From Candidatus Moraniibacteriota bacterium (GTDB lineage Bacteria; Patescibacteriota; Minisyncoccia; Moranbacterales; UBA1568): a DNA stretch of 64,000 nucleotides. Location of the stretch: the NCBI GenBank assembly GCA_052034935.1, contig JBPOIB010000009.1, forward strand, positions 2,357 to 66,356, in the 5' to 3' direction. A program made the position numbers and the translations under genes. Below are positions 5,316 through 34,366 of the stretch, piece after piece; positions within the stretch are counted from its first letter, which is position 1; each line of letters opens with the position of its first letter. Under the pieces are notes generated by a model. That model was not told where the DNA came from and searched no databases. It saw nothing but the letters and a program-made list of their open reading frames with translations.

Positions 5316-5347
5316 AGAGTCCCTTTTCGAGGGGACTCTTTTGATTT
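5316..5347 (+). terminator. intrinsic terminator after nrdB
   Basis: 8-bp stem AGAGTCCC/GGGACTCT followed by TTTTGATTT. Confidence 0.7.
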
Positions 5348-5414
5348 ACTGGACGTATCCTGGTTTCTCAGCAGGAGAGAAAGCGGTGTATAATGAAAAA
5401 GCAAAAATCAAACT

Positions 5415-6683
5415 ATGAAAATTAAATTGTTCATTATCGCATTTGGGCTCGCGCTCTCCTTAGGAATTTTATCTCCTACGCAGGGTCTTTATGCCGCTTT
5501 GCCTGTACCACCTGTGGACAATCCAGCTGACTGCAACGCCCTCGGGGGACAATGCCAGGACGATCCTAACTGCTATCAGTATGCCGGGAATAAGCCACCA
5601 GGCAGCGTTGAATTTCTGGGTGTTTGCGATGGAGCTACTCAAAACAAGGCCTGCTGTGGTATCAAACCAATAGCAGCGGCTCCCGGAAGCGATCTCTACT
5701 GCACGAATACACTCAAAGGTAACTGCGTACAGAAAACGCAAACTTGTGGCAGTAAAGCGGTCAAGGTTGGCGACTGTACCACCGATACCGCGGGTGTGCA
5801 GCGCATCTGCTGCCAGACTCTCCCGGGTGCCCAAATCACCGGCCCCATGGTCGCACCATATAGTCTCCTCGAGAAGATTCCCGGTTCATCCAATACCGTC
5901 GGCAGCCTCAATACCTATCTCGAAGATATCTACCGCTTCGCTTTTTGGGCGGTCGGTATCGCAGTTGTCTTCATGCTCACCATCGGCGGTTTCATGTACC
6001 TGACTTCGGCGGGCAATACATCACGCCTCGGCACGGCGAAAACGATCATTTTCGACGCCTTCCTTGGCCTCATCCTCGCTCTCGTCGCTTGGCTATTCCT
6101 CAACCTCATCAATCCCAATCTGGTTGACTTGGCACTGCCAACCACCTCAGTCATTACCCCACCACCACCTCCGACTGATACCGGTGGAACATCCTCTACC
6201 CTCGCAGGAGTACTCAAGACAACACCCGGTGTTACCGTTAGTTCAGCTGGGGACTGCAAACTCGATGCGACCACACCCGTTTCACCCGACCTATCACTTC
6301 AGCAATCTGCTGATGGTGTGCCAGTAAACCATTGTCAGAAAGACTGCCCTTCGACTGGTTACTGCCTTGGGCAAACAACTTTGAGTGCAACCATGCTAAG
6401 TGCGCTCATCGAGGTCGCCAGCCTTTATCCGTTCACTATAACCAGCTTCACGGGTGGCAACCATAGCGGAAACAGCTCCCACTATTCTGGGCGAGCAGTC
6501 GACATCAAGCCTGCTGTTTCAGTTCCAAAGTCGGACTGGCCAAAGATTCAAACCTATCTCAGAAGTCAGGGCACAAATAAGGCGCGGCTTGTTATCTGTG
6601 ACATCTGGGATGCCGTCCAAAAAAAGAATGTTGGCATTAACTGTGACGACCCTCGCACTGACCATATTCATGCTGAGTGGTAG
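5415..6683 (+). CDS. secreted/membrane protein: signal peptide + two Cys-rich repeats + TrbC/VirB2-like pilin-type double-TM segment + C-terminal M15/LAS-type zinc peptidase domain
   Basis: N-terminal hydrophobic signal; repeated Cys patterns; hydrophobic pair YRFAFWAVGIAVVFMLTIGGFMYLTSAGN...IIFDAFLGLILALVAWLFLNLI; C-terminal SSHYSGRAVD (SxHxxGxAxD) and DHIH metal-ligand motifs. Confidence 0.5.
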   Translation: MKIKLFIIAFGLALSLGILSPTQGLYAALPVPPVDNPADCNALGGQCQDDPNCYQYAGNKPPGSVEFLGVCDGATQNKACCGIKPIAAAPGSDLYCTNTLKGNCVQKTQTCGSKAVKVGDCTTDTAGVQRICCQTLPGAQITGPMVAPYSLLEKIPGSSNTVGSLNTYLEDIYRFAFWAVGIAVVFMLTIGGFMYLTSAGNTSRLGTAKTIIFDAFLGLILALVAWLFLNLINPNLVDLALPTTSVITPPPPPTDTGGTSSTLAGVLKTTPGVTVSSAGDCKLDATTPVSPDLSLQQSADGVPVNHCQKDCPSTGYCLGQTTLSATMLSALIEVASLYPFTITSFTGGNHSGNSSHYSGRAVDIKPAVSVPKSDWPKIQTYLRSQGTNKARLVICDIWDAVQKKNVGINCDDPRTDHIHAEW

Positions 6684-6723: not shown

Positions 6724-7869
6724 ATGAAAAAACTCTTCATCCTCTCCGGATCCTTCTTTCTCTTGGTCCTCGCCTTTCTCGGGGTCTATAACTTTGCCTT
6801 CAAGCATAATACGCTTGATCCGGTCGCTGATCCGAAGAAAAAGGCTGAGGCGGAAGAAAAAAAGCAGGCCGAGATGGTGGAGTCATCGGCACGATCAGTC
6901 GCTTTCGAGCAGATTATCGGAGAAGCCGTTTTCCAACCGGTCATTGGGGAGTACAGCATCTTCTACTACTCCAAACGCGATAACGCCCTGAAGGAGGCTG
7001 GACTTGACGGAAAAGAGATCAAGGTCCGAGTTCCTCGGATCCCAGGCGAGGTGACCCGTGTCGTCTGGTCGCCGAATCGGATCCAGGCCCTCGTGCTGGC
7101 CAAAGTCGATGGTGGCAACCTCTGGCACCTCGCTGATCTCCGTAATCAGACGACGATACCGCTTCGAAACGATATGTCGCGTCTTGCCTGGACCAGCCTC
7201 GGCGACCGCATCCTCTACCAGTTTACAGATCCCGGGACCGGGGAACGGACGCTGAATATCGCCACACCGGACGGGTCGAACTGGAAAAAGCTCGCCGATC
7301 TCGGCCAGGAAGACCATTTCATCGCTGCTATCCCGCGGTCAAGCCTCATCGCCTTTTGGGAAAAAACTGACGCCGCTCGGGAAAGCGTCCTTGAGACGAT
7401 TACCGTGAACGGGGAAAATCGCCAAACTGTTATCACCGCCCGAGCAGGGGCGGATTTCATCTGGTCTCCAGACAATCAACATATCCTGGTTCAGAATACG
7501 AACACCACCGGAGGTAATGCTGTTGTTCTCGGGCTGACCGATGAGGATGGCGCCGGTTATCGCAATCTCTTCGCTCCCACTTTCATCTCAAAAACAGTCT
7601 GGTCAAAGGACAGCGAGACCATTTACTACGCTCTTCCAAGCACATTCCCAGCGGACGCGGTCATTCCGAATGACTACTATGCGAAACCGCTCTACACGAG
7701 CGACACTTTTTGGAAAATGAACATTCGTACTGGGAAAAAAGAGCGATTAGTACCGCTTGCCGAAATGACCGAGGGCTATGATGCGAGCGACATCTTTCTC
7801 TCACCAAGCGAAACCGACCTCTATTTCGTCGACCGCAAGACCGCGAAGTTCTACCGTATCACCCTCTGA
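6724..7869 (+). CDS. membrane-anchored TolB-like beta-propeller (PD40/WD40-like repeat) protein
   Basis: N-terminal TM; repeated WSPN/WSPDNQ-type PD40 motifs. Confidence 0.5.
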   Translation: MKKLFILSGSFFLLVLAFLGVYNFAFKHNTLDPVADPKKKAEAEEKKQAEMVESSARSVAFEQIIGEAVFQPVIGEYSIFYYSKRDNALKEAGLDGKEIKVRVPRIPGEVTRVVWSPNRIQALVLAKVDGGNLWHLADLRNQTTIPLRNDMSRLAWTSLGDRILYQFTDPGTGERTLNIATPDGSNWKKLADLGQEDHFIAAIPRSSLIAFWEKTDAARESVLETITVNGENRQTVITARAGADFIWSPDNQHILVQNTNTTGGNAVVLGLTDEDGAGYRNLFAPTFISKTVWSKDSETIYYALPSTFPADAVIPNDYYAKPLYTSDTFWKMNIRTGKKERLVPLAEMTEGYDASDIFLSPSETDLYFVDRKTAKFYRITL

Positions 7870-21207: not shown

Positions 21208-22194
21208 TTATGCTGTCGGCAGACCGAAATAGATGCGGAGGATTTCTTCCGCTGCGTCGAATCCAGGGCGGTTCACCGGATTCTGATGGAGGGAAAGGTC
21301 TGGTCCGCCGTTGATTTCGATGATGACTCCGCCAGTTTCGACGAGCGGCCGGCCGATATCTTCGGTAATGACATCAATGCCGGCGACGTTGAGGTAAATT
21401 GCCTTGGCAGCGTCGAGGAAGACCTTCCGGTTCGCTGGATGGACCTGATCGGTAACATCGATTGCGGCTCCCCCGTGGGAAATCGGTGCGATGAGGTAGA
21501 GGGGAACGCGGATTCCGGGTGCCGGCACCATAGAAAGGGTTAGTTCCTGCTCCCCGAGGATAGAAATAAGCTCCGGTTTGATCGGGATAGGGTAGAGCTC
21601 GGATTCAGAGGTGAGGGTACGGTTATGGGATTCGATCAGCGTGAGTATGGTGTCGCGGCCATTGCCGACCAGTGTCGGTGGGATATATTCAGCAACTGCG
21701 ATGATGTGCCCCTCGAAAACGAGAATTCGGTATTCTTTACCGCGGATCTTTTTTTCCGCCAATACGTAAGTGAATTCTTTTTTGATCGCTTCATAGGCGG
21801 TGACCGCTGATTCGAGCGAGGGGAGCATCCCGTGAACGCCTTTTCCGACCGTGCTCGCGAGCGGCTTCAAGAGGATATCCCCCTTATGCTTTTCGTAAAA
21901 AGCGGCCAGTTCAGTCGAATCGGAGATAAGGAGTTGGTCAGTTGTAGGGAGTTTCTCTTGCCGGAGGATTTCATTGGTACTTGCCTTATCGGCCGCGATC
22001 TTCATCCCAATAAAAGAAGTGGAAAGAATCGTTGCCCCGAGGGTAAAGAGCTCTTTTTCTCCGTTGGAAATGCGGAAGACGGAACGGCGTTTTTCAGTAC
22101 CGCCCTTGATGGAGGCATACGGCGCTACTGTTAGGTCGAGTCGTTTTGCAGCCTGAAAAAACCCAAATTTTGAGGGAGTGTTAGAGTCGGGCAT
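21208..22194 (-). CDS. stand-alone cyanophycin-synthetase-N-domain-like ATP-grasp ligase
   Basis: KEYRILVFEGHIIAVAEYIPPTLVGNGRDTILTLIE and GGAAIDVTDQVHP...IIEINGGPDL closely parallel CphA ATP-grasp motifs; no Mur-ligase-like C-terminal half. Confidence 0.6.
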   Translation of the reverse strand: MPDSNTPSKFGFFQAAKRLDLTVAPYASIKGGTEKRRSVFRISNGEKELFTLGATILSTSFIGMKIAADKASTNEILRQEKLPTTDQLLISDSTELAAFYEKHKGDILLKPLASTVGKGVHGMLPSLESAVTAYEAIKKEFTYVLAEKKIRGKEYRILVFEGHIIAVAEYIPPTLVGNGRDTILTLIESHNRTLTSESELYPIPIKPELISILGEQELTLSMVPAPGIRVPLYLIAPISHGGAAIDVTDQVHPANRKVFLDAAKAIYLNVAGIDVITEDIGRPLVETGGVIIEINGGPDLSLHQNPVNRPGFDAAEEILRIYFGLPTA

Positions 22195-22207
22195 AGGTGT
22201 TTTAGTA

Positions 22208-22236
22208 GAAAAATAAAAAACGCCCAGGAGCGTTTG
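22208..22236 (-). terminator. intrinsic terminator downstream of GT4 gene
   Basis: AAACGC/GCGTTT stem; on minus strand followed by UUUUUUAUUUUU. Confidence 0.45.
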
Positions 22237-22341
22237 GAGAGGATCATCTTAAGCAGGCCTTGAGAGCATCCCTAAACGTCTAAAAAATATATCATAAAAC
22301 AATGAAAATGTAAATAGTTTTAATATGGATGACCAGTATTG

Positions 22342-23370
22342 TTATTGAGGAAGATGTGACTTTATAACAGATGAGTAAAAATCAATGTACGATTGGGCCA
22401 TCTGCTCCGCGCTGAATTTTTCTTCGGCATACCGCCGGCAGGCAGGCCGACTGAGCTGGTCCGTATGTTTGGTTGCCTGGATGAGCTCATTCAGATCATC
22501 TGAGAGAAAAGAGACGGCTGGATCGCTGAGTACTTCAGGGAGCGGATCTACCCGACTGCCGATAACGGGCGTGCCGCAGGCCAGTGCTTCTGCCGAAACT
22601 CGTCCGAATGTTTCTGGGCGGACAATCGGAAAAAGGAGGGCCTCCGAGTGGCGGAGTAAGTCAAGGAGCTCTTGATTGGGGAGATTATCGATAGCCTTGA
22701 TTTGTGAGCCGTCGATAAAAGGCAGGACCTCTTTCTCGTAGTATGCTTGGCGCTCATCCGAATTCCCCACTCGGCCAATAATAGTCAGTGTTTTCCCCGC
22801 TCCTCGAGCAATCGCGATTGCTCGGTGGATGCCCTTCTGCTCAGTGATGCGTCCGACGGTGATCAATCCCTTGCCTGGTGCGTAGGAGGGGGTGATTTTC
22901 GATACCGGAATACCTGGGTGAATGAACGCATCTGCACCAGTGATCTCCTGCTGCTGTTTGGTCAACGCGACAACCCGGACTGGAGTCGTTCGAATGAGTC
23001 GCATGTCTCTCTCGGCTATCTTGTTGTGGAGCGTCAGTACGGTCGGCACGGAAAGGTGTCGAGAAATGCTGTAGGCATAGCGTTGAGATGAGAGATGGAC
23101 GATATCAAACTCATTCTGATGAGAAATCACCTCGAGCTGGCTGCCGATAATCAAATTTGCTCGCTCCTGATCGGTCTGCTCCTTGAAGTCAGGCATGGAC
23201 CAGAGGCTGGTAGGAAGAATGGGATGGATCTTCGCTCGAGTGGGAAAGTTGGCAGGAGCAAACAGTGTGACGTCTACGCCGGCGTCAGTGAGAGCGTCGG
23301 CGAGCTGAATCGTCCCGAGCTCTGGCCCACCCGTCTCCCCAAACACCGGTGAAACAATGGCTACTCGCAT
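22342..23370 (-). CDS. glycosyltransferase family 1 (GT4-type)
   Basis: MRVAIVSPVFGETGGPE N-terminus and C-terminal E-x7-E-type GT-B features. Confidence 0.75.
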   Translation of the reverse strand: MRVAIVSPVFGETGGPELGTIQLADALTDAGVDVTLFAPANFPTRAKIHPILPTSLWSMPDFKEQTDQERANLIIGSQLEVISHQNEFDIVHLSSQRYAYSISRHLSVPTVLTLHNKIAERDMRLIRTTPVRVVALTKQQQEITGADAFIHPGIPVSKITPSYAPGKGLITVGRITEQKGIHRAIAIARGAGKTLTIIGRVGNSDERQAYYEKEVLPFIDGSQIKAIDNLPNQELLDLLRHSEALLFPIVRPETFGRVSAEALACGTPVIGSRVDPLPEVLSDPAVSFLSDDLNELIQATKHTDQLSRPACRRYAEEKFSAEQMAQSYIDFYSSVIKSHLPQ

Positions 23371-24320
23371 AAGGTGAGTAATTTTTTAGCATGGTCCAGA
23401 CGGACTTTTTCTGGAGCGACGAGCCGGAGAAGATCGAACCCCGGAGTTGTGTTCATTTCAATAAAGATAGGCGTGCCCTCTGGAGTGAACATAAAGTCGA
23501 GCGAGTAATGGGCCCTTTCAAAATGTCGTAACGGGGCCATGATGGATTCCGCTGCCTCCATGCAAGCCGCGGGAATCTTCTCATGAGGAACGAGCACGGC
23601 ATTCGCACCCTGATGGAAGTTCGTAAAGAGCGATCCCTTCTTGGCAATTCTTGAGAGCGCGTAGACAAGTCGGTGATTGATGAATACGAGCCGGAGATCG
23701 GCCACCTCCTCTTTTTGGGAAAAGCTGGGAACTCCAGCGGTTGGAATAAATTCTTGGACGATAACGGGAAAAGCGAATGTTTCCTTGAGGAGCTCTGATT
23801 TTTCACCGATGGCCACCTCTTTTCCGCCTGAGCCATAAAGCAGCTTGACCACCACTTTCGATGACCGTATCTTTTCAACCGCACTCATGAACTGTCCTTG
23901 ATTCTCGGCTAGAAAGGAGGTCGGCATCCATTCGCGGAAGATCAAGTACTGATGGAACTTATTATCGAAGAGCGTCCGGAACGTCGGGGAATTGATAAAG
24001 GGTGTCTGCAAAGACATAACCATTTTCTTTTCAAACAGAGCGTAGTCGTATTTCCCGGCGACCTTGTCGAAGAATGCGTTCGGTCGAGGTGGATGTTCTT
24101 TTTTCTCCCAACACCCTGAAGAGAATGTCCAGGCGCGAGAAAACAACCCGGTCGTCTCGTTATACCAGTCGATATGGGCGCGATAGACATCCCATCCTTG
24201 GGTCGCTGAAAAGGTATAGAATTCTTCGAACGAGATGCGCGTTTCGGGCGAGCCCTGAAGCGGAACAATGTCGCCCCAGTCGTCTTCGTTATAGAGAATG
24301 AAGAGCGCTTTCTGAGCCAT
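23361..24320 (-). CDS. ATP-grasp ligase (YheC/YheD- or RimK-like)
   Basis: Lys + Gly-rich loop KLLYGSGGKEV, hinge QEFIP, DLRLVFINHRLVY, Mg-binding FIEMNTTPGF. Confidence 0.55.
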   Translation of the reverse strand: MAQKALFILYNEDDWGDIVPLQGSPETRISFEEFYTFSATQGWDVYRAHIDWYNETTGLFSRAWTFSSGCWEKKEHPPRPNAFFDKVAGKYDYALFEKKMVMSLQTPFINSPTFRTLFDNKFHQYLIFREWMPTSFLAENQGQFMSAVEKIRSSKVVVKLLYGSGGKEVAIGEKSELLKETFAFPVIVQEFIPTAGVPSFSQKEEVADLRLVFINHRLVYALSRIAKKGSLFTNFHQGANAVLVPHEKIPAACMEAAESIMAPLRHFERAHYSLDFMFTPEGTPIFIEMNTTPGFDLLRLVAPEKVRLDHAKKLLTLCE

Positions 24321-24332
24321 AACGAGGAGGTC

Positions 24333-25748
24333 TTATTTTGTTACATCAACCAGGAAATTTCCGAGGTTCCGGCGGCCGATAATGGCGCGGTACTGGAGAC
24401 TGGAACGATCGACAACAGTCGGATTTGCTAAAATTTCCTGCCCGTCGATAAGAAGCTTAAGGCCGACCTTCGGCCGCATACTGACGCCGTTTGAGGCATA
24501 GACGAACACGATATCCTTGAGATCCGGTATATCTGACCGCAGGTACCTCTTTTTGAGGTCTTCCCGGGCTTTTTCCCCAGCCTCTTGGTTCTCTGGCTGC
24601 ACTGGCTCGATGGTATCAAAGTATTCGAGTACCGGCGTGAACCCGAGTTCTTCAGCGAGGGCGCGATCAATCGCACTGGAATCCGCACCAGTGTCGATTT
24701 TCGCTTCGATCTCGACTTCCTTTCCGTCTTTGCCGACGAGTTTTACCTTCTCGACCGAGCCGATGACATGCTTGCCGGAGAGCCCCTCGATGTTCTCTTC
24801 GATTTCTCCGCCGAAGAGATTCATCCCGACGCGCACGCCGTGGTCGACGCTTTTGATCTTCACGCCTTTTACGCGTTCGAGCCGTTCTTTCAGTCCTGCC
24901 ATGTTGGCGAGCTGAATTGAGAGTCCAGGGCGGGCATTGAGCTCGAGGATGACGGGACCAGCGTCACGGTCGATGGCGATATCGGCACCGAGGAAGCCGA
25001 GGCCGGAGACTTCCTGAGCCTTCACAGCCATCGTAAGAATGTCTTTCCAACGAGGAATCTTGATACCAGAGAGGAGAAGCCGGGTCTCGGGAACGTACTC
25101 GAGGAGCCGCCCCTTTCCGACGATAGCGGTCGTCGTCGTCCCGTTGGCCATGTCGATCCCGACACCGATCGCTCCCTGGTGGAGGTTCGCTTTACCGCCG
25201 GAATCCTTGGTTGGGAGGCGAAGCATCGCCATCACTGGTACGCGATTGAAAGTGATGATGCGGATATCAGGGATACCCTTCCAGGTGTAGGGCTTGAAGA
25301 GCTTGAGGAGCTTGAGCCGTTCTTCGAAAAAAGCGACGTCCGGCTTATTGGAAAGGGAGAAGGATCCATCAAGGATGTTCTGGATGTGGCTCTTAATATC
25401 AGCAACCGTGATGAGACTACCATCAGCCTTTACCCAGGCATCATCGCGCCCCTTTTTACGCGCGTAGACAACCACAATGCCTTCGCCTCCGAAGCCACGA
25501 TTTGGTTTCAGGGCGAAACTGTCGGGCAGCGTCTGCCAGTTGAACACTTCAAGTTCTTCAGCTGACTTGATCTTCGCAATGAGCGCGGAGACCGGCAACC
25601 CATTCTTTTTCAATACGACTTTACAACGGAGTTTCTGATCTGCCATCCGCCGACCACGGGCATGATTATACCGCCGTACATAATCGAGGTTGCGGGCGTT
25701 CATCCCGAGGAGAGTGCGGCTTTGAGCGAGCCAGTCGAAAAAAGACAT
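24333..25748 (-). CDS. alpha-L-glutamate-ligase-like (RimK-family) ATP-grasp fused to C-terminal retropepsin-like DUF785 (RimB-like) domain
   Basis: ATP-grasp: KVVLKKNGLPVS, FALKPNRGFGGEGIVVV, ILELNARPGL; C-terminal EAKIDTGADSSAID ... RAIIGRRNLGNFLVDV matches DUF785 pattern. Confidence 0.6.
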   Translation of the reverse strand: MSFFDWLAQSRTLLGMNARNLDYVRRYNHARGRRMADQKLRCKVVLKKNGLPVSALIAKIKSAEELEVFNWQTLPDSFALKPNRGFGGEGIVVVYARKKGRDDAWVKADGSLITVADIKSHIQNILDGSFSLSNKPDVAFFEERLKLLKLFKPYTWKGIPDIRIITFNRVPVMAMLRLPTKDSGGKANLHQGAIGVGIDMANGTTTTAIVGKGRLLEYVPETRLLLSGIKIPRWKDILTMAVKAQEVSGLGFLGADIAIDRDAGPVILELNARPGLSIQLANMAGLKERLERVKGVKIKSVDHGVRVGMNLFGGEIEENIEGLSGKHVIGSVEKVKLVGKDGKEVEIEAKIDTGADSSAIDRALAEELGFTPVLEYFDTIEPVQPENQEAGEKAREDLKKRYLRSDIPDLKDIVFVYASNGVSMRPKVGLKLLIDGQEILANPTVVDRSSLQYRAIIGRRNLGNFLVDVTK

Positions 25749-25766
25749 AGAAAAAGCGAAAAAGGA

Positions 25767-26426
25767 CTAGGACTCCTGTTTCAAGATATGGCGGAAGCGG
25801 AAAAGCTCCACGAGCCGCAGTCCCGTCCATTTGCCGAGACCGATGTTGATGACAAAGGTAACGAGAATTGCCCAAGGGTAGTGGAGGAAGAATTCTCGGA
25901 GCGCCGGCCAGCCGATGACGAAGTAACCAACGATGGAAATGATGAGTGTTTCACCAGCGAGGATGAGGGCAGTTTTTGACCCCTGCTCGATTTGGGTTGC
26001 GATGAATTTCTCGGCGAGGGTAATCATGATGAGGAGCGGAAAGATGTCGACCGCTGCGAGGCCGGTCCGTTTCAGTGAGGCACCGAGTGCGAGGATGCCA
26101 AGAATCATGAGCGAGATAATCGAGAGCGTGATGGCGACGCGAGGGAGGTAGAGGAGGCGGAAGGCACGGAGAAGGTAACGCGAGAGAATACCCATGCCGA
26201 TGACCGCAAAAAATATCGCGATGCCGTACTTCAACCCCTTTTCTCCAAAGGCAAGAAAGGCGAACGTGATGATTGATGGCGTGTAGATGCCGAAAGCCTT
26301 GATCCCAACGATTTGCCGAAAGAAGGCGACGAGGGTCGCGATAACTGGCAGCATGAGGAGGAGATAAACCGTTTCGAGCGGCACGCCTTCAGTCACAAAG
26401 TAATTGATGATGGGATGATAGTTCAT
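25767..26426 (-). CDS. 7-TM membrane protein (7TM_transglut-like, typical partner of alpha-L-glutamate-ligase-like ATP-grasp)
   Basis: seven hydrophobic helices in 219 aa; 18-nt gap to downstream ATP-grasp gene. Confidence 0.5.
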   Translation of the reverse strand: MNYHPIINYFVTEGVPLETVYLLLMLPVIATLVAFFRQIVGIKAFGIYTPSIITFAFLAFGEKGLKYGIAIFFAVIGMGILSRYLLRAFRLLYLPRVAITLSIISLMILGILALGASLKRTGLAAVDIFPLLIMITLAEKFIATQIEQGSKTALILAGETLIISIVGYFVIGWPALREFFLHYPWAILVTFVINIGLGKWTGLRLVELFRFRHILKQES

Positions 26427-32548: not shown

Positions 32549-34366
32549 CTATGCACGAGGTGGTTCGGCCGGGCCGTCAGTGGTTTCTTCCTGAACGGTT
32601 GCCTCTCCGACACCGCCTGCATTTTCATCATCAAGCTCCTTGTCGTCGAAGGTCGCGTAGAGCTCGGCGAGACTATCTTCTTTGCCCGATGCACTCCAGA
32701 CCTCATCCATCGTCGTGTAGCCCTCGAGCACTTTGATGAGTCCATCCTGAGCCATGGTAAGCATACCCTCTTTGACCGCACAGTCGAAGATTTCTTTCTC
32801 AGTCGCCATCTCACCAATCAGATCACGCACGGTTTGAGTCATTGTGAGGACTTCGAAGATACCCTTGCGTCCATGATAGCCGCTGAAGTTGCACTCGATG
32901 CAGCCTTTCGGCCGATAGAGAACCTCGATTTTCGGAAACCTCTTCGCTTTTGCTGCTTCCGGAATCATAGCGAGCAATTTCTGGATGGCTACGACTGTGC
33001 TCTCAGCCGGGAGGTATGGTTCTTTGCAGTGTTCACAGAGGATACGTACCAGACGCTGCGCGATGATGGTGTTCATCGCTGAAGCGATGAGTGATGGTTT
33101 CACACCGAGCTCGAGGAGCCGCGAGACCGTTGCGACGGCGTTATTCGTGTGCAGGGTTGAGAGGACAAGATGGCCGGTCAGCGATGCGGATACGGCGACA
33201 TCCGCCGTCTCATCATCGCGGATTTCGCCGACGAGGACGACATCGGGATCTTGCCGAACAATAGCCCGTAAGGCGGCCGCGAAAGTGTAGTTACGGTCTT
33301 TGGAGACTTCAGTCTGGACGATGCCCGCGAGATTGTATTCGATTGGATCTTCGACCGTAATAACTTTGATTGATGGATTGTTAATTTTGTTGATGAGGCT
33401 GTAGAGCGTCGTCGTTTTTCCGGATCCGGTCGGACCGGTGTTCAGGATCATGCCGTTCGGACGCTCAATCGCTTTCTGAACTTCTTCAAAAGCTTTTCCG
33501 TAGATGCCGAGATTCGTCATATCGACATTGACGTCCTCGCTATTCAGGAGACGCATGTTGATGTTCTCGCCGTGGTTTCCGGGAATGAGCGAAATACGGA
33601 TATCGATGCGGCTGTCGCCGTTCTCTATTGAGAAATGCCCATCCTGCGCTCGATCGCGGACATTGATGCGCATACCACCGAGCATCTTGATACGTGAGAG
33701 AGCGAGCTGATACATATGCTGCGGCAAGTCTCCGATGTCCTGGAGTAGTCCGTCGATGCGGTAACGAAGTCTCGCGGTTTTCTCACCCGGCTCGATATGC
33801 ACATCACTCCCGCGCATCTTTGACGCACCGGCAAGAATGATCTCGATGATTTGTGAGGTAGAGACGGTGTTGTCGTCTTTGCCAAGGGCCAAGAGATCGC
33901 CGAAATTCTTTTCGAAGTGTTCGAGATCGTCGCCTTTGAGCGAGACGCGGAGAATATCGAGACTTTCGAGGAGCGGCTTGTTTGAGTAACTCGCCCAGAC
34001 CTTCTCGAGGGACTGGCGTGACACGACCGAAAGTGTCATCCGCCAGGCGTTCTTATTCGAGAGCTTCTGAAGGTAGTCGAGCGCTTCAGGATCCTCTGGA
34101 TTCTCGAGGCCGACGTAGACGTGGGCGCCGTTCTTTCGGAAGAGCGCGCAGTGAAACCGCTCAGCATCTTCTTTCGGCAGCAGTGCGACATCTTTCGGAT
34201 CAGCTGGAAAGAGATGGAGATCGAGGTAGGGGAGTCCGAGCTTCTCGCCGAGAGCATGGGCGCGGTCTTCCATGGACTGTTCGCGGAGCTTCTTCAACGT
34301 ATCTTCGGCTCGCTGGGTTTTTTCGTTGACGGCCGTCGGGATGATGCGCCTGCTGACTTTGGGCAT
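32549..34366 (-). CDS. type II/IV secretion-system ATPase (GspE/PilB family) with N-terminal T2SSE_N domain
   Basis: Walker A GPTGSGKTTTLYS; Asp box, His box; N-terminal GspE_N-like region; 605 aa. Confidence 0.85.
   Translation of the reverse strand: MPKVSRRIIPTAVNEKTQRAEDTLKKLREQSMEDRAHALGEKLGLPYLDLHLFPADPKDVALLPKEDAERFHCALFRKNGAHVYVGLENPEDPEALDYLQKLSNKNAWRMTLSVVSRQSLEKVWASYSNKPLLESLDILRVSLKGDDLEHFEKNFGDLLALGKDDNTVSTSQIIEIILAGASKMRGSDVHIEPGEKTARLRYRIDGLLQDIGDLPQHMYQLALSRIKMLGGMRINVRDRAQDGHFSIENGDSRIDIRISLIPGNHGENINMRLLNSEDVNVDMTNLGIYGKAFEEVQKAIERPNGMILNTGPTGSGKTTTLYSLINKINNPSIKVITVEDPIEYNLAGIVQTEVSKDRNYTFAAALRAIVRQDPDVVLVGEIRDDETADVAVSASLTGHLVLSTLHTNNAVATVSRLLELGVKPSLIASAMNTIIAQRLVRILCEHCKEPYLPAESTVVAIQKLLAMIPEAAKAKRFPKIEVLYRPKGCIECNFSGYHGRKGIFEVLTMTQTVRDLIGEMATEKEIFDCAVKEGMLTMAQDGLIKVLEGYTTMDEVWSASGKEDSLAELYATFDDKELDDENAGGVGEATVQEETTDGPAEPPRA

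What the first reader, a model, noticed from the sequence alone, without database searches (positions are those of the whole stretch)
5415..6683. Fusion of Cys-rich secreted repeats, pilin-like TM hairpin and M15-type zinc peptidase
The protein has four parts in order:
- a signal peptide;
- two Cys-rich repeat modules of the form CxxxGGxCQ...CCG;
- a TrbC/VirB2-like pilin-type double hydrophobic segment with a short Gly/Ser turn, of the kind common in type-IV-secretion-like pilins of uncultivated monoderms;
- a C-terminal LAS/M15 metallopeptidase signature (SSHYSGRAVD and DHIH).

A pilin-anchored cell-wall hydrolase would be an unusual architecture. It could serve local peptidoglycan remodelling for pilus or secretion-channel assembly, or attack on a host or partner cell. 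A GspE/PilB-family ATPase lies at 32549-34366.
Basis: partly seen in the sequence, partly recalled or inferred. Interest (0 to 1): 0.65.

Follow-up and report, generated by a model that had tools for sequence, protein, structure and literature searches.

The report
Pilin-hairpin protein carrying a wall peptidase
An uncultivated ultra-small bacterium (Moranbacteria type) encodes a surface protein whose membrane anchor looks like a secretion-system pilin and holds outside the cell a Hedgehog-like zinc peptidase domain and two beta-defensin-like modules; the combination has not been described and probably acts on a bacterial cell wall.

Summary
ORF 5415-6683 (+, 422 aa) has:
- a signal peptide;
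- two 6-Cys modules;
- a two-helix hydrophobic hairpin that passes Pfam's threshold for PF18895 T4SS_pilin;
- a C-terminal domain with invariant H-x6-D and H-x-H zinc motifs.

The C-domain model is confident (pLDDT 94). Its best fold and profile matches are Hedgehog N-domains, M15A/M15C peptidases and phage lysins. Each match is marginal, but all point the same way. Charge and cysteine distribution put both end domains outside the cell.

New findings:
- The gene is a single-copy, syntenic core gene (nrdA-nrdB-gene-ORF381-Wzy_C ... dnaA) in 53 species-level genomes, about half titled Moranbacteria. It is not in a T4SS cluster.
- The hairpin is the most conserved part.
- The C-terminal ectodomain changes type between lineages: several zinc-motif variants, and one with weak lytic-transglycosylase matches.
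- The Cys modules match beta-defensins specifically.

The PilB-type ATPase at 32549-34366 is real but belongs to type IV pili, a different machine.

Best reading: an extracytoplasmic peptidoglycan peptidase tethered by a VirB2-like hairpin. Enzyme activity, substrate and polymerisation are untested.

Verdict: new variant of known kinds, moderately to highly interesting.

The parts
5365..5394 (+). Promoter-like site (TTCTCA-18-TATAAT) 20 nt upstream of the ATG. A terminator-like hairpin at 5320-5334 follows nrdB.
   Evidence: These are consensus matches only (2 found, 2.1 expected by chance), so they are weak evidence.
5415..6683 (+). Complete ORF, 422 aa: signal peptide, two 6-Cys modules, pilin-like hairpin, Pro/Thr linker, LAS-type zinc domain.
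   Evidence: An identical protein, P0001, is in public data.
5415..5495 (+). Signal peptide (residues 1-27).
   Evidence: Hydropathy above 1.5 over residues 1-25, with MKIK at the N-terminus. The cleavage site was not predicted with a dedicated tool.
5520..5666 (+). 6-Cys module 1 (residues 36-84), beta-defensin-like framework C-x6-C-x5-C-x17-C-x8-CC.
   Evidence: The module profile hits only beta-defensin-fold chains in the PDB. Pfam Defensin_beta is hit by 5 of 31 modules. Shuffle control. The AF2 model gives a short helix plus three strands, with pLDDT 78-91.
5688..5822 (+). 6-Cys module 2 (residues 92-136), framework C-x7-C-x6-C-x9-C-x10-CC.
   Evidence: Same evidence as module 1. pLDDT is 87-93.
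5859..5885 (+). Conserved pre-hairpin motif YSLLEKIPG (residues 149-157). Y149, L152, E153 and P156 are invariant.
5898..6110 (+). PF18895 T4SS_pilin match (residues 162-232). TM1 is 175-197 (nt 5937-6005), the cytoplasmic loop 198-208 (nt 6006-6038) and TM2 209-232 (nt 6039-6110).
   Evidence: Pfam 27.9 bits against a gathering score of 26.6. Hydropathy. AF2 helices 165-198 and 202-232. The loop carries +2 and each flank -1. This is the most conserved region of the protein.
6129..6191 (+). Flexible Pro/Thr-rich linker (residues 239-259, includes PPPPP).
   Evidence: pLDDT below 50 for residues 241-257. Low conservation.
6192..6680 (+). C-terminal LAS-type (Hedgehog/DD-peptidase-like) zinc domain, residues 260-422, with six conserved Cys (281, 307, 311, 317, 395, 410).
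   Evidence: AF2 pLDDT 94, pTM 0.89. Foldseek results. PDB profile search. hhalign. Invariant residues.
6474..6503 (+). SSHYSGRAVD: the H-x6-D zinc-ligand motif (H356, D363). The near-invariant H350 lies just upstream (nt 6462-6464).
   Evidence: It aligns with Shh 'SLHYEGRAVD'.
6663..6671 (+). HIH: the H-x-H motif (H417, H419), six residues from the C-terminus.
   Evidence: Invariant in 68 sequences. Shh has the same 'HIH' tripeptide (the ShhN sequence used and displayed; also visible).
6724..7869 (+). ORF381: membrane-anchored protein of unknown family. It is always the next gene downstream of the pilin-like gene, so it may share an operon.
   Evidence: Adjacent in almost all of the 53 genomes (not detected or not adjacent in L022, L047 and L051). 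No Pfam hit at E<=0.001. One faint beta-propeller hit, E=0.0075.

Best explanation
The gene encodes a surface protein of a Moranbacteria-type patescibacterium (a monoderm).

**Export and topology.** It is exported through Sec. A VirB2-like two-helix hairpin of the PF18895 family holds it in the cytoplasmic membrane. The short positive loop faces the cytoplasm, so both end domains are outside the cell.

**Domains.** The C-terminal domain sits on a flexible linker of about 20 residues. It is a disulfide-stabilised zinc peptidase of the LAS type. H356, D363 and H419 are the predicted zinc ligands. H350, H417 and D396 are candidate catalytic helpers. It most likely cuts a peptide bond in peptidoglycan stem peptides or cross-links. 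The two N-terminal beta-defensin-like 6-Cys modules most likely act as binding or targeting modules.

**Role.** The protein would give membrane-proximal wall-cutting activity. That role falls to VirB1-type hydrolases in other type IV secretion systems. The target is either the cell's own wall or the wall of the host cell it sits on.

**What is shown and what is inferred.**
- Shown: the domain composition, the conserved motifs, the fold similarity, the conserved synteny, and the pattern of a conserved hairpin with variable ectodomains.
- Inferred: the topology, zinc binding, peptidase activity, peptidoglycan as substrate, and the biological role.
For: **Architecture and motifs.**

**LAS fold and sequence similarity.**
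- The C-domain model has pLDDT 94.
- The 27 best PDB Foldseek hits are all Hedgehog N-domains (E from 4.6e-3, probability up to 0.97). The Streptomyces albus Zn DD-peptidase 1lbu follows directly; an RB49 L-Ala-D-Glu peptidase is at rank 30, after one unrelated chain.
- The best viral hits are 'Peptidase', 'Peptidase M15A' and lytic domains of tape-measure and Gp5 proteins, with probability up to 1.00.
- The C-domain profile hits Shh-N at E=1.6e-4, with weak M15C hits.
- hhalign gives 91%.
- Of 68 family members, 20 weakly hit Peptidase_M15_4, 10 HH_signal and 6 Peptidase_M15_3.
- H-x6-D plus H-x-H is the defining DD-peptidase/LAS motif (PMC6027127). Both are invariant here.

**Extracellular placement.** All 18 Cys are in the end domains. 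The loop carries +2 and each flank -1.

**Wall-hydrolase role.**
- At the same syntenic position, one relative (P0104) carries a C-domain with weak SLT/transglycosylase hits from three models.
- Other relatives carry different domains with the same zinc motifs.
- The neighbourhood is rich in envelope genes: Wzy_C x2, GT2 x2, a flippase, PBP1, FemAB and a Mur ligase.
- PMC12102498 notes that most Patescibacteria with VirB2-like pilins lack a VirB1 homologue.

**Link between the two domains.** Of 138 further cluster representatives that carry this C-domain, 107 also have the hairpin.
Against: - No peptidase family reaches a curated threshold. Peptidase_M15_4 scores 12.6 bits against a cut-off of 25.
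- No Foldseek hit reaches E<=1e-3, and TM-scores are only 0.33-0.43.
- The general-base residue is not securely identified. D396 is only a candidate.
- The closest structural relatives, Hedgehog proteins, are themselves disputed as enzymes (PMC6027127).
- The gene is not next to any T4SS gene, and none is in the 64-kb window. The link to secretion is therefore indirect.
- The hairpin is far more conserved than a simple anchor needs to be. This hints at a function that this explanation does not capture.
Confidence: 0.6

Rival explanations
1. It is a true VirB2-type pilus subunit. A T4SS encoded elsewhere in the genome extracts the hairpins and polymerises them into a filament. In known VirB2/TraA pili both termini point outward. 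Every subunit would therefore display a zinc peptidase and defensin-like modules, giving an enzymatically armed pilus that contacts and opens the host cell wall.
For: - The hairpin passes PF18895's threshold and is the most conserved part of the protein: 95-97% identity where the ectodomains are 65-70%.
- The loop (YLTSAGNT...AK) and the pre-hairpin motif are invariant, as expected if the hairpin docks to an assembly machine.
- Two Moranbacteria genomes are listed with VirB4 in Table S1 of PMC12102498.
- Pilin arrays are essential in a cultivated saccharibacterium (PMC10633639, PMC12857230).
- The flexible linkers, with pLDDT below 50, could let bulky domains sit outside a filament.
- The fast-changing ectodomains fit a host-contact surface.
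Against: - There is no VirB4, VirB6 or VirD4 in the window or within 10 kb in three related genomes.
- The gene is single-copy at a housekeeping locus, not in a pilin array.
- Known VirB2 pilins are small. No pilus with about 280 extra residues per subunit is known (my own knowledge).
- No similarity to solved VirB2/TraA chains was found with the family profile.
- No patescibacterial T4SS pilus has yet been seen (PMC12857230 calls it a possibility).
Confidence: 0.15
2. The precursor is a carrier that is cut. Processing near the invariant motifs before and after the hairpin (YxLLExIPG and NP[DN]LV) releases the defensin-like modules and/or the peptidase as soluble secreted factors. VirB2 and TrbC pilins are likewise trimmed at both ends. 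The released factors would act on neighbouring cells.
For: - Invariant short motifs lie exactly at both hairpin borders.
- Disordered linkers separate the three parts.
- VirB2 and TrbC maturation involves N- and C-terminal cleavage (my own knowledge of RP4 TrbC and Ti VirB2).
- Module copy number and C-domain type vary freely around a constant core.
Against: - No processing protease gene was identified nearby.
- The same motifs occur in short relatives that lack N-terminal modules, where there is nothing to release (consensus).
- The motifs can equally be structural caps of the hairpin.
Confidence: 0.1
3. The zinc domain is a non-catalytic binding domain, as is often argued for Hedgehog. The protein would then be an adhesin or sensor that recognises a wall or surface ligand, with the hairpin as its anchor.
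For: - The closest solved relatives are Hedgehog ligands.
- No secure general base was identified.
- Both ectodomains diverge fast, as is typical of recognition surfaces.
- The defensin-like modules are not cationic (net -2 and +2), which fits binding better than killing.
Against: - The complete set of LAS residues is invariant or nearly so across 68 sequences, although the rest of the domain diverges to 24-50% identity: H350, H356, D363, H417, H419 and an acidic residue after C395. Such conservation usually marks catalysis.
- A relative appears to carry a transglycosylase-like domain in the same position.
Confidence: 0.12

Closest known systems
PF18895 T4SS_pilin: VirB2-like pilins of Patescibacteria (for example the essential pilin array of Ca. 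Southlakia epibionticum; PMC12102498, PMC10633639)
   Same: Signal peptide plus two long hydrophobic helices joined by a short conserved loop. The Pfam model is matched above threshold. Same phylum.
   Different: Typical members are 125-157 aa with almost nothing after the hairpin. They often sit in tandem arrays (L067, L068, L072), and 1135 of 1948 assemblies have the pilin gene near virB4 (PMC12102498). This one is 422 aa and single-copy. It sits at a housekeeping locus away from any T4SS gene and carries about 120 extra residues before the hairpin and about 185 after it.
LAS / clan MD zinc peptidases: Hedgehog N-domain and bacterial 'bacHh', M15A Zn D-Ala-D-Ala carboxypeptidase (1lbu), M15C phage L-Ala-D-Glu peptidases
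   Same: H-x6-D and H-x-H motifs, down to 'HYxGRAVD' and 'HIH' as in Sonic hedgehog. The fold hits are consistent. Some rhizobial bacHh proteins are also predicted to have three membrane segments before a C-terminal Hh/DD-peptidase domain (PMC6027127).
   Different: - Identity to Hedgehog is only 16-21% over the fold; bacHh are over 50% identical to ShhN (PMC6027127).
- The domain is below every Pfam threshold.
- It has an extra N-terminal subdomain of about 60 residues, three conserved disulfides and a hairpin insertion before the HIH strand.
- Hedgehog's calcium-site residues were not examined.
T4SS-associated wall hydrolases (VirB1 lytic transglycosylase, PrgK, TcpG, CD419 NlpC/P60)
   Same: The proposed job is the same: local opening of peptidoglycan at the membrane for an envelope-spanning machine. 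One relative may carry an SLT-like domain in place of the zinc domain.
   Different: The catalytic fold differs (LAS zinc peptidase). The enzyme is fused to the pilin-like hairpin rather than being a separate or single-pass protein. It is not encoded in a T4SS cluster.
Beta-defensins (trans-defensins of animals; Pfam PF00711)
   Same: Six-Cys framework ending in CC, GGxC before the second Cys and GxC at the fourth. Some modules read 'CVSSGGACLYAC', against 'CVSSGGQCLYSAC' in human beta-defensin 1. The predicted topology is a helix plus three strands. Searches in both directions are specific.
   Different: - The modules are bacterial.
- They are embedded as 0-3 tandem modules in a membrane protein rather than being free peptides.
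- They are not cationic.
- The loops between C3 and C4 and between C4 and C5 are longer.
- All scores are below curated thresholds, and disulfide pairing is unknown.
- In the paper consulted (PMC11561630) trans-defensins are described only from animals.

Membership tests
PF18895 T4SS_pilin (patescibacterial VirB2-like pilin) | Match to the Pfam model at or above the gathering score | tested here: met
   27.9 bits against 26.6, residues 162-232. All 68 aligned homologues match, best E=5.7e-9.
PF18895 T4SS_pilin (patescibacterial VirB2-like pilin) | Signal peptide followed by two hydrophobic helices with a short loop | tested here: met
   Hydropathy. AF2 helices 165-198 and 202-232. The loop carries +2.
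PF18895 T4SS_pilin (patescibacterial VirB2-like pilin) | Encoded with T4SS genes (VirB4, VirB6, VirB3 and others) | tested here: not met
   No such gene in the 64-kb window or within 10 kb in L001-L003. The same synteny holds in 53 genomes. The rest of the genome was not available.
PF18895 T4SS_pilin (patescibacterial VirB2-like pilin) | Polymerises into an extracellular pilus | not testable with these tools
   Needs microscopy or biochemistry.
Classical TrbC/VirB2 (PF04956) and solved VirB2/TraA pilins | Detectable sequence similarity | tested here: not met
   No PF04956 hit at E<=10. No pilin chain appears among the PDB hits of the family profile. Foldseek with the full model gave only generic helical hairpins.
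LAS / clan MD zinc peptidases (M15, Hedgehog-N) | H-x6-D and H-x-H zinc motifs, conserved | tested here: met
   H356-x6-D363 and H417-I-H419, invariant in 68 sequences. The motif definition is taken from PMC6027127.
LAS / clan MD zinc peptidases (M15, Hedgehog-N) | DD-peptidase fold (central antiparallel sheet with helices on one side) | tested here: inconclusive
LAS / clan MD zinc peptidases (M15, Hedgehog-N) | Match to a curated family model at threshold | tested here: not met
   Peptidase_M15_4 scores 12.6 bits against a cut-off of 25. Best values in the family: M15_4 E=0.015, HH_signal 8e-4, M15_3 3e-3. PHROGs gave nothing.
LAS / clan MD zinc peptidases (M15, Hedgehog-N) | Zinc binding and peptidase activity | not testable with these tools
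Beta-defensin (PF00711) | Six-Cys framework C-x(4-8)-C-x(3-5)-C-x(9-13)-C-x(4-7)-CC (framework recalled from my own knowledge) | tested here: inconclusive
   The order and the terminal CC are met. Several spacings exceed the usual ranges (x17 and x8 in module 1; x6 and x10 in module 2).
Beta-defensin (PF00711) | Sequence similarity to the family beyond the cysteines | tested here: inconclusive
   - The module profile's top 21 PDB hits are all beta-defensin-fold chains, with E from 0.0015.
- 5 of 31 modules hit Defensin_beta, best E=0.001.
- hBD-1 scores 20.2 bits, and none of 1000 cysteine-preserving shuffles reaches that score.
- All values are below curated thresholds.
Beta-defensin (PF00711) | Disulfide pairing C1-C5, C2-C4, C3-C6 | not testable with these tools

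The most novel reading that the evidence does not exclude
Moranbacteria assemble this protein into a VirB2-type filament in which every subunit displays a Hedgehog-like zinc peptidase and beta-defensin-like modules. This would be an enzymatically armed pilus for breaching or feeding on a host cell wall. In addition, the 6-Cys modules would be true homologues of animal beta-defensins. That would extend the trans-defensin superfamily to bacteria, much as bacterial relatives were found for the Hedgehog N-domain.
Probability: 0.12. Interest if true: 0.88.

Novelty: new variant of a known kind. Interest (0 to 1): 0.62.

Why it matters
How Patescibacteria attach to and draw resources from host cells is largely unknown. 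Their T4SS and VirB2-like pilins are essential in the one system tested. Yet no pilus has been seen, and most genomes that have VirB2-like pilins lack a VirB1 wall hydrolase (PMC12102498, PMC12857230).

This is a lineage-wide core gene that welds a wall-hydrolase-type domain to the pilin hairpin. It gives a concrete candidate for the missing wall-opening activity. It also suggests that the 'pilin' hairpin is a general platform for displaying changeable ectodomains.

The domain is small, folds with high predicted confidence and could be expressed and assayed directly.

Separately, if the modules prove to be homologous to beta-defensins, this would bear on the origin of animal defensins.

Tried and rejected
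- **PDB search with the full protein (phmmer):** no hits.
- **Foldseek with the full-length model:** only generic helical hairpins, nothing significant. A C-domain-only model was needed.
- **PHROGs scan of the C-domain and of variants B, C and D:** nothing useful except for P0104.
- **hhalign of variants B, C and D against the window's C-domain family:** probabilities of only 51%, 30% and 3%, although the zinc motifs line up. Their LAS assignment therefore rests on motifs alone.
- **Homologue search with the N-terminal module region alone:** nothing.
- **Cluster look-up:** returned no source names. The organism is inferred from the titles of homologous records.
- **Second pilin-like or LAS-like gene in the window:** none found.
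- **Solved relative or Pfam family for the neighbour ORF381:** none.
- **Rejected: part of a T4SS or conjugative island.** The locus is housekeeping and syntenic in 53 genomes.
- **Rejected: the PilB ATPase at 32549-34366 is the partner.** It is a T2SS/T4P-type ATPase, 26 kb away on the other strand, with no PilC beside it.
Full report
**1. The observation**

The ORF at 5415-6683 (+) is real and encodes 422 aa.
- A hydrophobic N-terminus, residues 1-27.
- Twelve cysteines in two groups of six: C40/47/53/71/80/81 and C96/104/111/121/132/133.
- Two hydrophobic stretches, 175-197 and 209-232, joined by TSAGNTSRLGTAK.
- A PPPPP-containing linker.
- A C-terminal part with six more cysteines, SSHYSGRAVD at 354-363 and HIH at 417-419.

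**2. The hairpin**

Pfam PF18895 (T4SS_pilin) matches residues 162-232 at 27.9 bits against a gathering score of 26.6. All 68 aligned relatives match the same model. NCBIfam gives only a sub-threshold hit to a mycoplasma ICE pilin-like family.

No similarity to classical TrbC/VirB2 or to solved pilins was detectable. The 'VirB2-like' label therefore rests on the Pfam family and on published work that treats PF18895 as VirB2-like (PMC12102498, PMC12857230).

AlphaFold2 models two long helices, 165-198 and 202-232. The loop carries +2 and the two flanks -1 each. All 18 cysteines lie outside the hairpin. This argues for a topology with the N-terminus out, the loop in the cytoplasm and the C-terminus out. 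It is an inference; no dedicated topology predictor was available.

**3. The C-terminal domain**

*Conservation.* In an alignment of 68 homologues, H356, G359, D363, H417, H419 and four cysteines are invariant. H350 and two further cysteines are nearly so. The residue after C395 is Asp or Glu in all but one subgroup. That makes D396 a candidate general base, but I could not confirm this.

*Motifs.* H-x6-D plus H-x-H is the signature of DD-peptidase/LAS zinc enzymes. In Sonic hedgehog the ligands are H141, D148 and H183, with E177 as the base (PMC6027127).

*Sequence searches.*
- The full-family profile hits Sonic hedgehog N-domain in the PDB at E=2.8e-3.
- The C-domain-only profile hits it at E=1.6e-4. 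Weak hits to M15C L-Ala-D-Glu peptidases follow.
- hhalign against human ShhN gives 91% probability over 38 columns.
- Across the family, 20, 10 and 6 of 68 members weakly hit Peptidase_M15_4, HH_signal and Peptidase_M15_3. None is at threshold.

*Fold searches.* The domain alone is modelled with pLDDT 94 and pTM 0.89.
- Against the PDB, the first 27 Foldseek hits are all Hedgehog N-domains (E 4.6e-3 to 8e-2). The Streptomyces albus Zn DD-peptidase 1lbu follows at rank 28 and a phage RB49 L-Ala-D-Glu peptidase at rank 30, after one unrelated chain.
- Against viral models, the top hits are 'Peptidase', 'Peptidase M15A' and lytic modules of tape-measure and Gp5 proteins.

No single hit is statistically strong, but every line points to the same fold. 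I conclude that this is a divergent LAS-type zinc domain that current family libraries miss. Whether it is catalytically active is inferred from the conservation of the full residue set.

**4. The Cys modules**

A regular expression for the six-Cys frame finds 0, 1, 2 or 3 modules before the hairpin in 75, 27, 17 and 1 of 120 relatives.

I built a profile from 31 modules and searched it against all PDB sequences. The top 21 hits were all chains with the beta-defensin fold: human beta-defensin 1 (E=0.0015), gallinacins, bovine BNBD-12, platypus DLP-1 and crotamine.

In the reverse direction, 5 of 31 single modules hit Pfam Defensin_beta (best E=0.001) and 2 hit Defensin_beta_2. These are the families hit most often.

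Human beta-defensin 1 scores 20.2 bits against the module profile. None of 1000 shuffles that keep its cysteines in place reaches that score (mean 2.3, sd 4.4, max 18.8). The similarity therefore goes beyond cysteine spacing.

The model shows a short helix followed by three strands in each module. The modules are not cationic.

A 2024 survey of bacterial defensins reports only cis-defensins from bacteria and describes trans-defensins as animal proteins (PMC11561630). Homology and convergence cannot be told apart here.

**5. Family, organism and locus**

The 120 listed relatives are named, where they have names, 'pilin' from Candidatus Moranbacteria/Moraniibacteriota or Patescibacteria.

A scan of one genome per species found 67 loci. 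In 53 of them (L006-L058) the hairpin is 49-82% identical. About half of these records are titled Moranbacteria/Moraniibacteriota. Most of the rest are titled 'uncultured Bdellovibrionales'; I think these titles are mislabels but did not verify that. In most of the 53 the gene order is nrdA, nrdB, this gene, ORF381, then Wzy_C on the other strand. dnaA lies about 9.6 kb downstream where the locus reaches that far.

The neighbours in the window are ribonucleotide reductase, envelope polysaccharide genes, YidC, DnaA, DnaN and PBP1. No VirB4, VirD4 or VirB6 is present in the 64 kb. There is no second pilin-like gene in the window.

So this is a single-copy core gene near the replication origin, not part of a secretion cluster or a mobile element. 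Two Moranbacteria genomes are listed as VirB4-positive in Table S1 of PMC12102498. A T4SS elsewhere in this genome is therefore possible but unknown.

**6. Conservation pattern**

Identity to the window protein, by region:

| Relatives | Hairpin | N-terminal modules | C-domain |
|---|---|---|---|
| Closest | 95-97% | 65-67% | 66-70% |
| More distant | 78-84% | 23-46% | 44-59% |

In the genome of P0006, NrdA, NrdB and DnaA are 91%, 93% and 85% identical to the window's proteins. The C-domain is only 51% identical.

In 35 of 120 relatives the same hairpin is followed by a different Cys-rich domain.
- Three recurrent types carry H-x(6-7)-D-like and HxH or FHV motifs that line up with the LAS motifs. 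Profile probabilities are low, at 51%, 30% and 3%.
- One of these types (P0094) sits at the same syntenic locus.
- One relative, P0104, has weak hits to SLT and to phage transglycosylase families (E=0.02, 0.013 and 0.018).

A search of 1.84 billion cluster representatives with the C-domain found only 184 at E<=1e-3. Of the 138 new ones, 107 have the hairpin. Many of the rest are fragments or have a comparable arrangement of hydrophobic segments.

In other patescibacterial lineages the pilins are short (125-157 aa) and arranged in tandem. A few lineages have 620-780 aa hairpin proteins with other large Cys-rich ectodomains.

The picture is of a constant, strongly constrained hairpin that carries interchangeable extracellular domains. 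In Moranbacteria most of these appear to be wall-hydrolase-type domains.

**7. Mechanism**

My preferred reading (confidence about 0.6) is a membrane-tethered extracytoplasmic peptidoglycan peptidase with defensin-like targeting modules. It would act on the cell's own wall or on the wall of the host cell at the contact site. It could supply the VirB1-type function that most VirB2-carrying Patescibacteria lack (PMC12102498).

Rival readings:
- A true pilus subunit that forms an enzyme-decorated filament (0.15).
- A precursor cut at the hairpin borders to release soluble factors (0.10).
- A non-catalytic, Hedgehog-like binding domain (0.12).

The very high conservation of the hairpin and its loop is the strongest point for the pilus rival. 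My preferred model does not explain it.

**8. Comparison with known systems and novelty**

The protein is a member of PF18895 by model score. It fails the genomic-context criterion for a T4SS pilin.

It has the defining motifs of LAS peptidases and a consistent fold signal, but reaches no curated family threshold. It is not a bacHh in Roelink's sense (over 50% identity to ShhN).

I found no paper describing a pilin-hairpin/peptidase fusion or Moranbacteria pilins. Public annotation calls the relatives 'pilin' or hypothetical, with only PF18895 recorded.

I rate it a new variant of known kinds.

**9.

The ORF at 32549-34366 (-) is a T2SSE/MshEN ATPase. It belongs to the type IV pilus / type II secretion family. 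Its pilins are unrelated to VirB2-type pilins, so it does not bear on this gene.

Noticed in passing
window 6724-7869 (+): ORF381 is a membrane-anchored 381-aa protein with no family assignment. It follows the pilin-like gene by 40 nt and is adjacent to it in almost all of the 53 related genomes. It has WSP(N/D)-type repeats and one faint beta-propeller hit (E=0.0075), so it may be a functional partner.
   Followed up: partly
L060 9770-12118; L062 7427-9544, 9548-11587 and 15094-17130; L069 9548-11440 and 12955-14979: Other patescibacterial lineages, including Uhrbacteria, encode 620-780 aa proteins. These have the same kind of hairpin followed by 370-630 residues that are rich in Cys (up to 38). 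Some sit in tandem. The pilin hairpin may be a general display platform.
   Followed up: no
P0104 (relative; 2.7-kb contig), residues about 175-282: One relative carries, after the same hairpin, a domain with weak SLT/transglycosylase hits from Pfam and two PHROG families. This suggests swapping between kinds of wall hydrolase.
   Followed up: partly
window 32549-34366 (-): PilB/GspE-type ATPase (T2SSE E=2.9e-113, plus an MshEN domain) with no PilC next to it. The neighbouring ORFs are a DHH-family protein and, further away, RuvB.
   Followed up: partly
window 21208-26426 (-): A run of three ATP-grasp proteins (RimK-like, ATPgrasp_ST), a GT4 glycosyltransferase and a 7TM_transglut membrane protein lies next to PBP1. 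It looks like a peptide- or sugar-modifying envelope cluster.
   Followed up: no
L007, L012-L014, L016, L019-L022 and others (record titles): Many records that carry the syntenic Moranbacteria-type locus are titled 'uncultured Bdellovibrionales bacterium' (TPA assemblies). The titles look like taxonomic mislabels. One relative is also named from an 'Undibacterium sp.' MAG.
   Followed up: no
L008 9896-10717 and 10764-12350: In one Moranbacteria genome two hairpin ORFs lie head to tail at the locus: a 254-aa one ending 12 residues after the hairpin, and a 491-aa one. This could be a duplication or a frameshift.
   Followed up: no
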